64,000 nt of DNA. It comes from a virus. Lineage: Duplodnaviria; Caudoviricetes. Numbering within the stretch: the stretch's first letter is position 1; each line of letters begins with the position of its first letter. The stretch lies in IMG/VR virus record IMGVR_UViG_3300031994_000081, positions 7,932-71,931 of that record; one strand, written 5' to 3'. A program made the position numbers and the translations under genes. The notes below the pieces were generated by a model that was not told the origin of the DNA, ran no database searches, and saw nothing but the letters and a program-made list of their open reading frames with translations. Of this stretch, positions 54,145 through 58,076 are shown one piece after another.

Positions 54145-54282
54145 TGGGGGAGATTGGACTTGAACCAATAGACTTTTCATTTACAGTGAAATGCTTTAAC
54201 CATTGAAGTAACCCTACCATAACACCACTAACTAAAGGGAACAAATGGCAGGGGATGAACTTGCTTTTTAAGCTACTCCCCC
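54145..54282 (-). tRNA. tRNA-Tyr(GTA) interrupted by a 65-nt insert in the D arm (54205-54269)
   Basis: GGGGGAG TA GCTT [insert] AATGGTTA AAGC A TTTCA CTGTAAA TGAAA AGTCT ATTGG TTCAAGT CCAAT CTCCCCC A gives a perfect 73-nt cloverleaf once the insert is removed. Confidence 0.8.
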
Positions 54283-54298
54283 AAATGACTTTTCTTTG

Positions 54299-54424
54299 TG
54301 CGGAGAATTGGACTCGAACCAATAACACTGGGAACCCTATTCCTGAAGTAACTCTGAAGTACACCACAATTAGGGAACATTTATCAGAGTACAAAACCAT
54401 GCTCTACCATTGAGCTATCTCCGC
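54299..54424 (-). tRNA. tRNA(AGG; Pro-type anticodon) interrupted by a 54-nt insert in the anticodon stem (54343-54396)
   Basis: GCGGAGA TA GCTC AATGGTA GAGC A TGG[insert]GA ATAGGGT TCCCA GTGTT ATTGG TTCGAGT CCAAT TCTCCGC A gives a 72-nt cloverleaf once the insert is removed. Confidence 0.7.
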
Positions 54425-54559
54425 ATTTTGCCCTTTAAGGATAGGGCATATCCATTACTCACACCACTGTCGATGTATCAGCATACACATCAGTGTATTA
54501 ATGCTCAAAACCCCGCAAAAATGAGCTTACACTATTGTCCATCCGTGGTGTGTTTAGAG

Positions 54560-55966
54560 TTACTCTTCAAAGAGATTAGCCAGACCTTCGTAACCTGCAA
54601 TGAAAGTTAAGAAGTGTTCACTGAAACCAGTCACCTCAGCAGTCCAAATACCCTTGTAGCAAATGCCCCTCTTTTCAGAGGAAACATCTACAATGTAATT
54701 GTACTTGCCATAAGGCTTGGGAAGAGCCTTATTGGTGTCACAATCCTGTGAGTCTGAGAAGATGATAATCCTATCAAATTCACCATCAATGTTTTCTCTA
54801 CACCAGTCTAGGCATTGTCTGGTGAAGATACCACCACCGCCAAGGTGGGAAACACTGGAACGAATCTGACTTATGATGTAGAAGCCCTTGCTGGGATATT
54901 TGATATGCTCTGTCTTGTGTTTCCTTGCAACATCACTGCCAGCAGTACACACAAGCTCAAAGTCCTCACACTGATTAGCAGCAAGCATAGCCATTACAGA
55001 TGCAGCAGCCAATCTGTCATATTTGGACTTGGAACTATAAGCACACCTCATAGAGCCTGACACATCTACTATGAAGAGAGTTCTACCTGGAAGTTTTGGG
55101 AGGTTCTTATAGGATTCTATCATAGCATCCTCAATTTGCCTCTTAAACTCAGGAGCATTATCAGCAGCCTGCAAGAAGTTCATAGGAAGTAACATTGAGG
55201 ATTTAAGTTCTCTCAAACCCTTCTCAATCACTTTCTTATCAACTCCTGCCTGTACCATATTCCTAAGGTTTCTAAGCATGGCAAGACCACCAATTTTACC
55301 TTCCTCAATGAGTTTGGTCCAAGTGGCTTTCTTATCTTTGCCAGCACTAAGCATAACCTCCCAAGTCTCAGGCACAGTGAGAGATCTTGATGCAATCTTT
55401 TCAAAGAGAGTGGTCTCATACTCATTTCTTGGCTTAGGATGAACCAAGAACATAACATCTCTTAACTTAATGGCACCATCTCTGTCATACTTGGCAAATT
55501 TGTACTCATTAAAGTTATGAAATGCAGCAGCAAGACCCTTCTTTGCACATTTGGCAATAGGAGTTTTCTTCCTATTCCAATAGATTGCAAGGAAGTCAGT
55601 GAGCATATCAGCTCTAGTGATAATCCTAGGAAGCAACTCAGGGACATATTCCTTAGTTCCTTCATATTTGCACATTTCTGATGCAAGGAACAATGGAGTA
55701 TGTCTGAGTTTCTGCACCAACCTAGCTTCTTCAGTAAGATTGGCAACATCCTCAGGTTTACACAATGGGATAAGCCTTCTGATGGCATTAGCAGTAGCTT
55801 CACCATCAACATAAGCATTGTCTTCCCACAATAAGTTAGCAAGCACAACTCTTCTCAGAAGAGATATGTTGCTCTGGATGGCAGCAGCCATTCCAGCACC
55901 ACCAGCCAGCCTTACATTGGCATCAGCCTTAGGCTTGGGTTTTGTGTTGGGGTTAATCTTTGACAT
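54560..55966 (-). CDS. rsr: Ro60/Rsr-like TROVE + vWA protein
   Basis: TROVE motifs (LRHTPLFL, RADMLTDFLA, AKYDR, LRDVM..HPKP, TWEV, MLRNLRN), MIDAS DVSGSM, and IIFSD. The start is probably 55966 (MSKINP). Confidence 0.9.
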   Translation of the reverse strand: MSKINPNTKPKPKADANVRLAGGAGMAAAIQSNISLLRRVVLANLLWEDNAYVDGEATANAIRRLIPLCKPEDVANLTEEARLVQKLRHTPLFLASEMCKYEGTKEYVPELLPRIITRADMLTDFLAIYWNRKKTPIAKCAKKGLAAAFHNFNEYKFAKYDRDGAIKLRDVMFLVHPKPRNEYETTLFEKIASRSLTVPETWEVMLSAGKDKKATWTKLIEEGKIGGLAMLRNLRNMVQAGVDKKVIEKGLRELKSSMLLPMNFLQAADNAPEFKRQIEDAMIESYKNLPKLPGRTLFIVDVSGSMRCAYSSKSKYDRLAAASVMAMLAANQCEDFELVCTAGSDVARKHKTEHIKYPSKGFYIISQIRSSVSHLGGGGIFTRQCLDWCRENIDGEFDRIIIFSDSQDCDTNKALPKPYGKYNYIVDVSSEKRGICYKGIWTAEVTGFSEHFLTFIAGYEGLANLFEE

Positions 55967-55970
55967 ATCT

Positions 55971-56183
55971 TTAATTGTTGTTAATGTTAATCTTTCCAAA
56001 TAGCACACCACCCAATGCTGCTAATCCCCAACCTTGCCAATAGGTAATAGTAGGGAAGTTAAACAACATAGGCATGAGCCAGTTCCACAGCCACTTCACT
56101 ATGATACCTTCAAGTAAAGCAGCAAAGAACACCAAAATGATGACCACTATGGTCATCCCAAATGCTTTTGCAATCTTTTCCAT
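55971..56183 (-). CDS. Small membrane protein
   Basis: Hydrophobic ORF (WLWNWLMP.LF..P.ITYWQ). Confidence 0.65.
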   Translation of the reverse strand: MEKIAKAFGMTIVVIILVFFAALLEGIIVKWLWNWLMPMLFNFPTITYWQGWGLAALGGVLFGKININNN

Positions 56184-56479
56184 CAGTCAATGATTTTGTT
56201 TTCAATATCATTCCTTACTACTTGAAGATTCTCAAGCCTTGTGGTAGTCTGAACTAATTGCTCTCTCAAGTACTCTAATACAAGCTGCACTAATGGCTTT
56301 CTTAGTTTCCCTGGGATGTATAACTTATTCTCATAAGCACAGCTGCTTTCCTTGTGATGGTGTAAGAGATACACACTATTATCAAACTCGGTATTCTCAA
56401 GTCTGCTAATGTCTTTCTCTAGAGACTTCTTATTTGATAGAAGATTCTCTAATTCTTTTACTTGTTGTTCTGTAATCAT
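56183..56479 (-). CDS. Hypothetical protein
   Basis: Start MITEQ follows a poly-A leader. Confidence 0.5.
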   Translation of the reverse strand: MITEQQVKELENLLSNKKSLEKDISRLENTEFDNSVYLLHHHKESSCAYENKLYIPGKLRKPLVQLVLEYLREQLVQTTTRLENLQVVRNDIENKIID

Positions 56480-56496
56480 CTTTTTTTTTTTGGTTG

Positions 56497-56516
56497 TGGA
56501 GATGCTGGGAGTCAAA
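56497..56516 (-). repeat. Degenerate duplicate of the tmRNA 3' end
   Basis: On the + strand, TGGAGATGCTGGGAGTCAAA versus TGGAGATGTGGGGAATCGAA at 57101 (16/20 identical). Confidence 0.55.
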
Positions 56517-57039
56517 TATTAATATAAGACTTGCCACAGCTAATATCTCTTACTGTTTGATATGGTATGTTAAGCCTCTCTGCTATAATAGTAAGCTTAA
56601 TACCTTCACTTTTCAGTCTTCTTACCTCTAGGACTTGCTCATTACTTAACACTCCATACTTTCTGATTTTTCTAACCTTATTATCAGAAGCTCTACCATC
56701 AATATAACGAGCATTTTTATTACCTTTACAGCTTCTTCCTTTGCTCTTCATATCATCCATATTATCCTGATGAGTCCCTTTGAATAGATGCAGAGGATTA
56801 TAGCATCTTGGGTTATCACATTTATGACAAATGAAATCATTAGAAGTAATATCCTCATCATAATACAGTTGATAAGCAATCCTGTGAAGTAAACCATGAT
56901 ATTTCTTACCCTCAATATGAGTATTAATATCAGGATAACCAGATTTGGAAAGACTCCCTTCCCATTCCAAACATTCATCTTCCTTCACATCTTTAATAAG
57001 AAGTTCTACTTTTCTTTTAATCTTTTCAGGAATAATCAT
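56512..57039 (-). CDS. Free-standing HNH homing endonuclease
   Basis: CLEWEG..GY...HRIAY...ICHKCDNPRCYNPLHLFKGTHQDNMDDM. Confidence 0.88.
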   Translation of the reverse strand: MIIPEKIKRKVELLIKDVKEDECLEWEGSLSKSGYPDINTHIEGKKYHGLLHRIAYQLYYDEDITSNDFICHKCDNPRCYNPLHLFKGTHQDNMDDMKSKGRSCKGNKNARYIDGRASDNKVRKIRKYGVLSNEQVLEVRRLKSEGIKLTIIAERLNIPYQTVRDISCGKSYINI

Positions 57040-57100
57040 TTTTATAAACTTTTAGCATTACCCAGAGCACACCGCGTGGAGGTAGTTTACATTGTGCTCC

Positions 57101-57448
57101 TGGAGATGTGGGGAATCGAACCCCAGTCCAAATAACTCAGAATAAGAAACTTTGTTACACGTTTTAACTATTTAGTGCATAGTTGCGTTGGGGCTGCCCA
57201 TTGGGAACAGCGGTTCCACCAGCTTGTTATATGACACAAGCAAACATTTTCCCTAAGGAACTTTTGTGTGTGGTATTCTGTTTCCAAGCCACCACACTAG
57301 CTCAGACCTTAAGCAGCGAGTCTAACCTCAGCTCTGCTATAGTCAGGTACAAACTGAATAGTATTGTCCTTTATTGTTTGCTGTTTAAGCACAGCTGCCT
57401 TGCGTGATTTCTTACCCCTCCTTACCTGTCAAAAGCCAAGTCATCCCC
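57101..57448 (-). ncRNA. ssrA: tmRNA
   Basis: 5' GGGGATG pairs with 3' CATCTCC (G3.U70). D-loop TTTTGAC and T-loop GGTTCGATTCC are present. The tag frame 57368-57309 encodes DNTIQFVPDYSRAEVRLAA*. Confidence 0.92.
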
Positions 57449-57600
57449 AATTGATAGAGCAAACTTTTTAGTGAAAATCCCTATCAGTGTTTTCAACCTT
57501 TGTTTCTATGTAGAGTGAAACAGGCTAATATCTCTACAGGGGCTGCATCCACCTGCTATGAACCTGCGGAATCACTCCACAGGCATTTTGTTTCAATAAA

Positions 57601-57740
57601 AAAGCAAAGGGAATTAGTGACAGAGTACGGTTTGTTTACCAAATCTAGGACTCGAACCTAGGACTTAAAGAACCAAAATCTTTCATACTAACCACTGTAT
57701 TAATTCGGTGAAGTAACTCTATCGAGACACCACTTTGCTT
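57601..57740 (-). ncRNA. tRNA-Gln(TTG)-like body (57637-57709) enclosed by the shared module; candidate Y-like RNA
   Basis: The cloverleaf has acceptor stem ACCGAAT/ATTTGGT. The flanks pair: AAGCAAA/TTTGCTT and GATAGAGT(T)AC/GTACTCTGTC. Confidence 0.75.
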
Positions 57741-57849
57741 ATTCCTTGCAAATGGTCTTGAAGAGGATATAATTAGCTCAGATTCCTCAATCACAGCCAA
57801 GTGTGAGAATTTCTGTGCCATTCATAACCTCTTCTAGACCATAAAGTTA

Positions 57850-58076
57850 AAGCATACATAGGTAACATTGAGTAGGGTAATTGGAGCCTTTTTAGCCTCT
57901 GTACTCACAACAGAGGGTTCTGAGAAGTTCTTTTGCCTCAGCTTTCAAGGAGGGGTCTTCTGTTTTAGCCACAGATGGTATTAACTCCCTTTTCAAGACT
58001 TGTGTCCCAAGGGAGGGGTTATTCAAATTATATAATATGATTGAAGTAACCCTGCTACTCACCACTATATATGCTT
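57850..58076 (-). ncRNA. 227-nt ncRNA closed by the shared module; candidate Y-like RNA
   Basis: AAGCATATAT pairs with ATGTATGCTT. The 5' strand is GTGGTG-AGTAGC-AGGGTTACTTCA and the 3' strand is TACCCTACTC-AATGTTACCT. Confidence 0.65.

What the first reader, a model, noticed from the sequence alone, without database searches (positions are those of the whole stretch)
54145..58076. Ro60/Rsr gene surrounded by four RNAs sharing one mobile two-strand RNA module: candidate new Ro-Y RNA/tRNA system
Seen in sequence (minus strand): strand X = GTGGTG-N5/7-AG(A/G)GTTACTTCA occurs four times (near 54205-54228, 54344-54367, 57709-57733, 58042-58065). Each copy has a partner strand Y = (G/T)TAC(T/C)CT...TT(C/A)CCT. 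X and Y covary: AGAG pairs with CTCT in two copies and AGGG with CCCT in two copies. Together they form a U-bulged helix next to a conserved internal loop. The topology differs each time: inserted in a D-loop, inserted in an anticodon stem, wrapped around a whole tRNA, or closing a non-tRNA RNA. Established: bacterial and some phage Ro60 orthologs (Rsr) bind Y RNAs through a bulged terminal helix, Y RNA genes lie next to rsr, and YrlA mimics tRNA. Inference: this is a non-canonical Ro-binding module grafted onto real tRNA scaffolds, possibly tethering Ro, acting as a decoy for anticodon nucleases, or aiding RNA repair. It lacks the GNCGA/UUGAC Ro motif and the permuted YrlA layout, so it does not fit the Y RNA classes I know.
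Basis: partly seen in the sequence, partly recalled or inferred. Interest (0 to 1): 0.93.

Follow-up and report, generated by a model that had tools for sequence, protein, structure and literature searches.

The report
Phage Ro60 gene with Y-RNA partners
A sheep-gut crAss-like phage encodes the RNA-binding ring protein Ro60 flanked by four small RNAs that share one conserved two-strand "handle". The handle is most likely the Ro60-docking stem of bacterial Y RNAs, joined here to tRNA look-alikes in ways not described before.

Summary
The motif GTGGTG-N5-8-AGRGTTACTTCA occurs four times on the minus strand at the stated places (0 expected). Each copy has a covarying partner strand, and the four topologies are as described.

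This is not a separate system but a divergent member of the known Rsr/Ro60-Y RNA (YrlA) kind.
- In other phages the same handle brackets circularly permuted tRNA-like domains, which is the YrlA layout. These give sub-threshold Rfam YrlA hits and sit in arrays directly upstream of TROVE genes.
- In 54 of 66 related Ro60 loci, including cultured Bacteroides phage crAss001, handle RNAs lie beside the gene. All 168 hits are on its strand.
- Covariation supports helix P2 and a newly resolved U-bulged helix formed by the two conserved boxes.

What is new is the connectivity. A hairpin-closed handle sits inside un-permuted tRNA-like RNAs, in the anticodon stem or the D-loop. In another RNA the handle surrounds a whole tRNA-Gln.

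The tRNA-like bodies are mimics rather than decoders. Anticodon loops vary in length among orthologues, and no handle-free alleles exist.

Ro60 binding and function are inferred, not shown. Earlier follow-up reports of this scan describe comparable handle-tagged RNA arrays beside Ro60-like genes in other phages. I did not compare their handles with this one.

The parts
54560..55966 (-). rsr / Ro60 orthologue (TROVE + vWA). The ATG at 55966 is the likely start; the ORF is open up to the GTG at 56011.
   Evidence: Pfam TROVE 6.2e-19 and weak vWA_Ro60. MIDAS motif DVSGS in the translation. PDB sequence hit to Thermus phage Ro60 9KOP/9L5Y, E 1.2e-14. 65-68% identical to the TROVE protein gp96 of Bacteroides phage crAss001 and relatives.
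57850..58076 (-). RNA-1: open-form handle closing a non-tRNA interior of about 170 nt. X1 lies at 58042-58065 and Y1 at 57861-57880. The terminal stem P1 is about 12 bp.
   Evidence: for X, for Y. The MFE fold recovers the terminal stem and handle, z = -3.28. No sequence homologue among the fetched loci.
57601..57740 (-). RNA-2: P1 (AAGCAAAG/CUUUGCUU), then X2 (57709-57733), a whole tRNA-Gln(UUG) (57637-57709), an AACAAACC linker, Y2 (57609-57628) and a U-tract.
   Evidence: tRNA 63.2 bits and ARAGORN. The open-form model R2 hits 57607-57733 at 24 bits, E 0.008. The MFE recovers P1, the box helix and P2. The 90% relative L027 keeps P2 and the acceptor stem through compensatory changes.
54299..54424 (-). 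RNA-3: un-permuted tRNA-like RNA with a free acceptor end. The hairpin-closed handle (54343-54396; Y3 54373-54392, X3 54344-54367) is inserted between nt 29 and 30 of the anticodon stem.
   Evidence: Rfam tRNA 49.2 bits across the insert. Model R1 gives 69.2 bits. Orthologous 'type A' RNAs lie downstream of rsr in many Crassvirales loci.
54144..54282 (-). RNA-4: un-permuted tRNA-like RNA (loop CUGUAAA, reads as Tyr GUA). The hairpin-closed handle (about 54205-54269; Y4 54237-54254, X4 54204-54228) is inserted in the D-loop.
   Evidence: ARAGORN and Rfam partial tRNA calls. R1 gives 61.8 bits. The MFE recovers the acceptor stem and a 9-bp P2, z = -3.68. Orthologues L027 and L028 have anticodon GAU instead, and P2 is fully re-paired with a different sequence.

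Best explanation
The four RNAs are Y RNAs, meaning dedicated non-coding partners of the phage Ro60 (Rsr) protein. The X/Y module is their common Ro60-docking handle.

Anatomy of the handle, from the outside in:
- A closing stem P1 in the open forms, or a short loop in the hairpin forms.
- A three-pair helix made by the two conserved boxes with an invariant bulged U: 5'-N[U]RG-3' pairing with 5'-CYN-3'.
- The conserved residues UG and UGUU.
- A 7-9 bp helix, P2.
- A UUAC/A-rich internal loop.
- UUCA.

The handle is related to the Ro-binding stem of bacterial YrlA RNAs. The attached part is the effector module: a tRNA mimic in RNA-3 and RNA-4, an apparently complete tRNA-Gln in RNA-2, and another fold in RNA-1.

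By analogy with Deinococcus, Salmonella and Thermus phage phiLo, the RNAs would load or gate Ro60. They would also tether it to a second factor, such as host PNPase or a tRNA-binding protein, early in infection.

Shown: the handle, its covariation-supported helices, its tight linkage to TROVE genes, and its occurrence on permuted YrlA-type RNAs in relatives.

Inferred: Ro60 binding, the effector, and the biological role.
For: 1. Motif: four exact copies, 0 expected.
2. Linkage in other phages: 12 of 26 exact-pattern loci elsewhere in IMG/VR carry a TROVE gene on the same strand directly downstream of the RNA array, and a 13th has one elsewhere on its contig. Most of the other loci look like chance hits inside ORFs or are small fragments.
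3. Layout: in those phages the handle brackets T arm, closed acceptor stem and D arm, which is the YrlA layout. Full-length Rfam YrlA hits reach 39.1 and 37.8 bits, E about 1e-5 to 1e-7 locally.
4. Linkage near this gene: models R1 and R2 find the handle in 54 of 66 related Ro60 loci. All 168 hits are on the rsr strand, and most hairpin-form hits lie within about 1 kb downstream of the stop codon. In this phage record the handle occurs only beside rsr.
5. P2: 89-93% paired, with a covariation score of 0.47-0.76 against at most 0.14 for slid controls and 0 of 500 shuffles.
6. Box helix: 100% paired, and all three pairs show compensatory changes.
7. Motif matches: UUAC fits the conserved YUAY of YrlA, and sister copies read GUGGCGAUAG (PMC4201824).
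8. Precedent: phage Ro60 is known to bind phage-encoded Y-like RNAs and to assemble with host PNPase (PMC12135203).
9. Expression hint: sheep-gut metatranscriptome contigs carry the region unspliced.
Against: - No binding or expression experiment exists.
- No window copy reaches any Rfam Y RNA or YrlA score, even at E up to 10. Relatives stay below the gathering score (at most 39 bits against 69).
- The window copies read GUGGUG, not GNCGAA.
- In three cellular MAGs the short form occurs in tandem clusters that are not next to a TROVE gene. One of these MAGs shows no TROVE gene at all, though it may be incomplete.
- Twelve of 66 Ro60 loci show no handle within 5 kb.
- The RNA-library evidence is from contigs only, and DNA carry-over is not excluded.
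Confidence: 0.75

Rival explanations
1. The hairpin-form modules are a new kind of tRNA intron or processing cassette. They would be cut out, or in RNA-2 cut away, to release working tRNAs, and Ro60 would be at most a chaperone of that step.
For: - Removing 54343-54396 or about 54205-54269 restores perfect cloverleaves (reading; first-reader notes seen).
- The 3' end of X abuts position 1 of tRNA-Gln in RNA-2.
- About half of the orthologues carry canonical 7-nt anticodon loops such as CUUUUAA, CUGUAAA and CUGAUAA.
Against: - The same handle occurs on permuted RNAs and on short hairpin RNAs that contain no tRNA to release.
- Orthologues with the same acceptor stem have loops of 3, 5 or 9 nt and different anticodons.
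- No handle-free allele of these RNAs exists in 66 related loci.
- No RtcB or Rnl2-type ligase is found in the phage record, which is 71% complete.
- RNA-library contigs show only the unspliced form, with no joints at the modules.
Confidence: 0.08
2. The handle is a real structured RNA element but docks a partner other than Ro60, for example a host tRNA-processing or modification enzyme or another phage protein. It would lie near rsr only because RNA genes cluster there.
For: In MAGs the short units sit in their own promoter-to-U-tract clusters away from the TROVE gene, and one MAG has no detectable TROVE. Phage RNA genes do cluster: tmRNA and tRNAs lie in the same block.
Against: Across distant phage lineages (31-57% Ro60 identity) the arrays abut the TROVE gene on the same strand. 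Two of the three MAGs still encode TROVE. The architecture and motifs match YrlA.
Confidence: 0.12
3. The copies are selfish or incidental DNA repeats (MITE-like elements or terminator-like hairpins) that happened to insert into tRNA genes.
For: The module is short, repeated and found at different positions in tRNA-like genes.
Against: Compensatory base changes keep two helices at the RNA level. There is a complete strand bias of 168 to 0. The positions are conserved in orthologous RNAs across Crassvirales.
Confidence: 0.02

Closest known systems
YrlA-type bacterial and phage Y RNAs with Rsr/Ro60 (Rfam RF02553; Chen et al. 2014, PMC4201824; Wang et al. 2018, bioRxiv 10.1101/312249)
   Same: - Encoded within a few kb of rsr on the same strand.
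- Modular build: a Ro-binding stem formed by 5' and 3' strands plus a tRNA-like effector domain with T and D arms.
- A conserved YUAY element (here UUAC).
- Several Y RNAs per locus.
- Relatives with this handle have the permuted layout and give full-length sub-threshold YrlA hits.
   Different: - The window copies read GUGGUG rather than GNCGAAN0-1G.
- The handle has a covariation-supported U-bulged box helix.
- In RNA-3 and RNA-4 the tRNA-like body is not permuted: the acceptor end is free, and the handle is closed by a loop and inserted in the anticodon stem or the D-loop.
- RNA-2 holds a whole tRNA between the strands.
- Many copies keep an anticodon-like stem-loop, which YrlA lacks.
Thermus phage phiLo Ro60 with Yrl1/Yrl2 (NAR 2025, PMC12135203)
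   Same: A phage-encoded Ro60 with phage-encoded Y-like RNAs next to the gene. The protein is the only PDB sequence match to this one. That paper shows binding and a RYPER-like complex with host PNPase.
   Different: The phiLo RNAs were picked by a CGAA motif and a stem-bulge-stem shape, and lie upstream of the gene. No tRNA-embedded forms are described there.
Metazoan and Deinococcus Y RNAs (Ro60 bound to a conserved helix with a bulged pyrimidine; Stein et al. 2005, as cited in PMC4201824)
   Same: A short conserved helix with a single bulged pyrimidine on the 5' strand, next to the RNA termini, serving as the presumed protein site.
   Different: The sequences differ, and Rfam Y_RNA gives no hit at E up to 10. 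The resemblance is one of form, recalled from the literature, and was not tested here.
Mycobacterium smegmatis YrlA after RNase P cleavage (Chen 2014; summarised in bioRxiv 10.1101/312249)
   Same: A Y RNA whose tRNA-like domain ends up with free acceptor ends, and to which CCA is added.
   Different: In M. smegmatis the free ends arise by processing of a permuted precursor. Here the un-permuted connectivity is encoded in the gene.

Membership tests
YrlA (Rfam RF02553) | Encoded within about 4 kb of the Ro60/rsr gene on the same strand | tested here: met
   All four RNAs lie within 2.1 kb of rsr on the minus strand. All 168 hits in relatives are on the rsr strand.
YrlA (Rfam RF02553) | 5' motif GNCGAAN0-1G | tested here: not met
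   The window copies read GUGGUG followed by variable nucleotides. Sister copies in L007 and L008 read GUGGCGAUAG or GUGGCGACAG, one mismatch from the motif.
YrlA (Rfam RF02553) | Conserved YUAY between the Ro-binding stem and the tRNA-like domain | tested here: met
   UUAC is invariant in the four window copies and nearly so in alignments A1-A4.
YrlA (Rfam RF02553) | tRNA-like domain with conserved T and D arms | tested here: met
   RNA-2, RNA-3 and RNA-4 score as tRNA (63.2, 49.2 and 33.8 bits). RNA-1 has no such domain.
YrlA (Rfam RF02553) | Circular permutation: T arm 5' of D arm, acceptor stem closed by a loop, RNA ends in the Ro stem | tested here: not met
   RNA-3 and RNA-4 have free acceptor ends and a loop-closed handle. 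RNA-2 has normal tRNA order. Relatives carrying the same handle do meet this feature.
YrlA (Rfam RF02553) | Score at or above the Rfam gathering threshold (69 bits) | tested here: not met
   No YrlA hit in the window at E up to 10. Relatives score 28-39 bits.
Ro60 / Rsr protein | TROVE (HEAT-repeat ring) domain followed by a vWA domain with a MIDAS motif | tested here: met
   TROVE 6.2e-19, weak vWA_Ro60 below its cut-off. DVSGS motif present. PDB hit to phage Ro60. The ring fold itself was not modelled.
Ro60-Y RNA ribonucleoprotein | Direct binding of the RNA by Ro60 | not testable with these tools
   Needs pull-down or EMSA.
Decoding tRNA | Seven-nt anticodon loop and anticodon kept among orthologues | tested here: not met
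   For RNA-3 and RNA-4 types, loops of 3, 5, 7 and 9 nt and different anticodons occur within one acceptor-stem group. RNA-2 (tRNA-Gln UUG) is kept in the two relatives seen.
tRNA introns (group I or bulge-helix-bulge type) | Group I catalytic core, or a BHB motif at both junctions | tested here: inconclusive
   No Intron_gpI hit at the modules, although two group I introns elsewhere in the window are detected. The inserts are 54-65 nt. I saw no BHB on reading the junctions but ran no formal BHB search.

The most novel reading that the evidence does not exclude
The un-permuted forms may be working hybrids: tRNA-shaped RNAs with free acceptor ends and, in many cases, canonical anticodon loops (Lys UUU, Tyr GUA, Ile GAU, Asn GUU, Thr UGU). 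They would carry a permanent Ro60 handle. As such they would present Ro60, and any nuclease tethered to it, to tRNA-recognising machinery. Candidate targets are host anticodon nucleases (as decoys or traps), tRNA repair or modification enzymes, or even the ribosome. RNA-2 would be a Ro60-gated tRNA precursor. This would be a new mode of phage counter-defence or translation control built on Ro60.
Probability: 0.12. Interest if true: 0.85.

Novelty: new variant of a known kind. Interest (0 to 1): 0.62.

Why it matters
Crassvirales are among the most abundant phages of the mammalian gut. Their TROVE gene is an early gene (PMC8375218), yet I found no paper in the library describing its RNA partners. 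In crAss001 the 900-nt stretch that holds them is unannotated.

The family shows that the Ro60 handle can be joined to a tRNA scaffold at several points, or wrapped around it. This bears on the proposed origin of YrlA from tRNA transcripts. A tRNA with a handle hairpin in its anticodon stem, duplicated in tandem, would directly yield the permuted YrlA layout.

It also gives a cultured phage-host pair in which the still unknown role of the tRNA-like Y RNA domain can be tested.

Tried and rejected
- Self-cleaving ribozyme reading: no Rfam ribozyme family matched the modules at E up to 10.
- tRNA-intron reading: disfavoured for the reasons given under the rival explanations.
- Literature: a search on tRNA, intron, bacteriophage, D-loop and ribozyme gave nothing relevant. 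'Y RNA' plus 'crAss' gave only unrelated papers. Two reviews by Sim, Wolin and colleagues are not held.
- Incomplete contigs: the contigs of L019, L020, L023, L026 and L010 show no TROVE gene but are 5-56% complete, so this says nothing.
- Read laying: only contigs were available. Contig breaks and adapter-tagged ends at 57191 and 58002 do not match RNA ends. Depth differences cannot be read as expression.
- Jumbo-phage relatives (L071-L075, L081, L083, L093): no handle found by the models or by relaxed motifs within 5 kb.
- RNA-1: no homologue among the fetched loci.
- RNA-3: the MFE fold does not reproduce the family fold.
- Open-form box pairs: my regex extraction of Y boxes from alignment A4 was noisy, so the box-helix statistics rest on A2 only.
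- L101 in the genome scan is a chance match inside a coding region.

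
Full report
**Observation.** On the minus strand the pattern GTGGTG-N5-8-AGRGTTACTTCA occurs exactly four times, at 54204-54228, 54344-54367, 57709-57733 and 58042-58065. 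None of 100 dinucleotide shuffles gave a match. The fourth has CCCT...TGTTCCC without the KTAC part.

The ORF between the copies (54560-55966) is a TROVE protein with a vWA MIDAS motif. Its only solved relative by sequence is the Ro60 of Thermus phage phiLo. The block also holds a tmRNA, an HNH endonuclease gene and several tRNAs.

- RNA-4 (54144-54282) has the module in its D-loop.
- RNA-3 (54299-54424) has it between nt 29 and 30 of the anticodon stem.
- RNA-2 (about 57601-57740) has X, a whole tRNA-Gln(UUG) and then Y, closed by an 8-bp terminal stem and followed by a U-tract.
- RNA-1 (about 57850-58076) has X and Y around about 170 nt of non-tRNA RNA, closed by a 12-bp stem.

**Relatives.** The exact X pattern occurs in 26 IMG/VR contigs. 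About ten of these look like chance hits inside ORFs. In the rest the motif belongs to small RNA genes.

Twelve of the loci carry a TROVE gene on the same strand immediately downstream of the RNAs, and a thirteenth has one elsewhere on its contig. In these phages (Ro60 31-57% identical to this one) the RNAs form arrays of three to eight X...Y units.

Many units enclose a stem-loop, a T arm, an acceptor stem closed by a tetraloop, and a D arm. That is the circularly permuted tRNA-like layout that defines YrlA (Chen 2014, PMC4201824; Wang 2018, bioRxiv 10.1101/312249). Rfam's YrlA model aligns full-length to such units at 39.1 and 37.8 bits, below the gathering score of 69 but with E about 1e-5 to 1e-7. 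Other units enclose only a short hairpin.

Two motifs also link the handle to YrlA. The conserved UUAC fits the YUAY element of YrlA. Some sister copies begin GUGGCGAUAG, one mismatch from the published GNCGAAN0-1G motif.

**Close relatives of this phage.** Sixty-seven loci encode close relatives of this Ro60. They are Crassvirales and include cultured Bacteroides phage crAss001.

I built one covariance model of the hairpin form (R1) and one of the open form (R2). Together they find the handle in 54 of 66 loci. All 168 hits are on the rsr strand, and most hairpin-form hits lie within about 1 kb downstream of the stop codon.

In crAss001 the 900-nt unannotated gap after gp96 holds two open units, one anticodon-stem type and one D-loop type. 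In this phage's own 72-kb record the handle occurs only beside rsr.

**Structure of the handle.**
- Helix P2 is 89% paired in the hairpin alignment and 93.4% in the open alignment. Its covariation scores are 0.468 and 0.761, against at most 0.141 when partners are slid. No shuffle out of 500 reached these values, and in the open set all eight pairs show double-sided changes. These alignments were fitted to the models, which favours the structure somewhat. An independent duplex-energy test gave cognate X/Y pairs -8.6 kcal/mol against -3.5 for non-cognate pairs. That test is partly circular, because partners were chosen by energy.
- The two conserved boxes turned out to pair with each other. X1 pairs with Y7, X2 is an invariant bulged U, X3 pairs with Y6, and X4 pairs with Y5. 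All 54 informative sequences are paired, and all three pairs show compensatory changes. One example is G:C to A:U in 22 sequences.
- Beyond this helix lies a variable closing stem or a loop.
- Inside P2 lies a UUAC/A-rich internal loop. Often a UUCA/UGAA pairing follows.
- A short conserved helix with one bulged pyrimidine near the RNA ends is the form of the Ro60 site on metazoan Y RNAs. That comparison comes from the literature and was not tested here.

**Are the hosts real tRNAs?** For the RNA-3 and RNA-4 types, orthologues keep the acceptor, D and T arms. The anticodon-like arm, however, changes. Loops of 3, 5, 7 and 9 nt and different anticodons occur within one acceptor-stem group. RNA-4 reads GUA here but GAU in the 90% and 74% relatives.

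No handle-free allele of these RNAs exists in the related loci. The phage record has no RtcB or Rnl2-type ligase. Sheep-gut metatranscriptome contigs identical to the window span RNA-3, RNA-4 and rsr unspliced, with no joints at the modules. This evidence is weak because only contigs were available and DNA carry-over cannot be excluded.

I therefore read RNA-3 and RNA-4 as tRNA mimics that keep the handle, not as intron-bearing pre-tRNAs. About half of the orthologues nevertheless retain canonical anticodon loops such as CUUUUAA, CUGUAAA and CUGAUAA. YrlA lacks such a loop, and this is unexplained.

RNA-2 contains a fully canonical tRNA-Gln (63 bits). Its acceptor stem and P2 are kept by compensatory changes in relatives. 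A second tRNA-Gln(UUG) lies at 58521-58594. Whether RNA-2 is processed to a tRNA or persists whole cannot be told.

**Counter-evidence.**
- The window copies match no Rfam Y RNA model.
- Twelve Ro60 loci, mostly from very large phage contigs, show no handle.
- In three cellular MAGs the short form occurs as two to four tandem genes with sigma-70-type promoters and U-tracts, away from any TROVE gene. Two of these genomes encode TROVE elsewhere and one shows none.

So linkage is strong in phages but not absolute, and binding by Ro60 remains an inference.

**Verdict.** This is a divergent, previously unannotated branch of the Rsr-Y RNA (YrlA) kind, widespread in Crassvirales and other phages. The new element is the range of ways the Ro60 handle is joined to tRNA-shaped bodies.

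The known precedents are phage Ro60 with Y-like RNAs (PMC4201824, PMC12135203) and the RNase P-opened YrlA of M. smegmatis (bioRxiv 10.1101/312249). In crAss001 the TROVE gene is expressed within 10 minutes of infection (PMC8375218).

Earlier follow-up reports of this scan describe comparable handle-tagged RNA arrays beside Ro60-like genes in other phages. I did not compare their handles with this one.

Noticed in passing
window 57042-57100 (-): Sub-threshold match to the HDV-like ribozyme family HDV-F-prausnitzii (28.9 bits against 44, E 0.019). It starts directly after the 3' end of the tmRNA (57098-57448) and may be a 3'-end processing ribozyme for the tmRNA.
   Followed up: no
window 57750-57842 (-): A long imperfect hairpin of about 35 bp lies between RNA-1 and RNA-2. 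It is conserved in the 90% relative L027, where the four pairs that change (on one side each) stay paired. No Rfam match.
   Followed up: partly
window 54545-54570 (mRNA strand) and 54458-54473: The last codons and stop of rsr read as the reverse complement of an X-like strand (TGAAGAGTAACTCTAAACACACCAC). About 80 nt downstream lies GTGGTGTGAGTAATGG, an X-like start without the UUAC box. The two can pair (CACACCAC with GUGGUGUG). This may be a degenerate fifth unit or a site for pairing with the handle RNAs.
   Followed up: partly
L084 3393-3479 and L085 2115-2201: ARAGORN reports an 87-nt tRNA with a CUUUUAA (Lys) anticodon loop and a small extra hairpin (CCGCAAGG) in the D-loop. This is a different kind of D-loop insert, in relatives of this phage.
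   Followed up: no
L098 6450-6910, L100 6380-6690, L099 7877-7934: Rumen and other MAGs carry two to four tandem copies of the short handle RNA. Each has a TTGACA-N17-TATAAT promoter and a U-tract. In the two rumen MAGs the array lies upstream of an Era-like GTPase gene and not next to TROVE.
   Followed up: partly
window 27847-28064 and 40820-41032 (-): Two group I introns above the Rfam gathering score elsewhere in the window.
   Followed up: no
hairpin-form and permuted units in many loci (e.g. L024 3990-4114, L018, L008): The stem-loop after UUCA very often ends in UAA followed by UGA (NNNNUAA-UGAAN). The apparent bias towards anticodon loops of ANN-reading tRNAs may therefore reflect a conserved loop motif rather than true anticodons.
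   Followed up: partly
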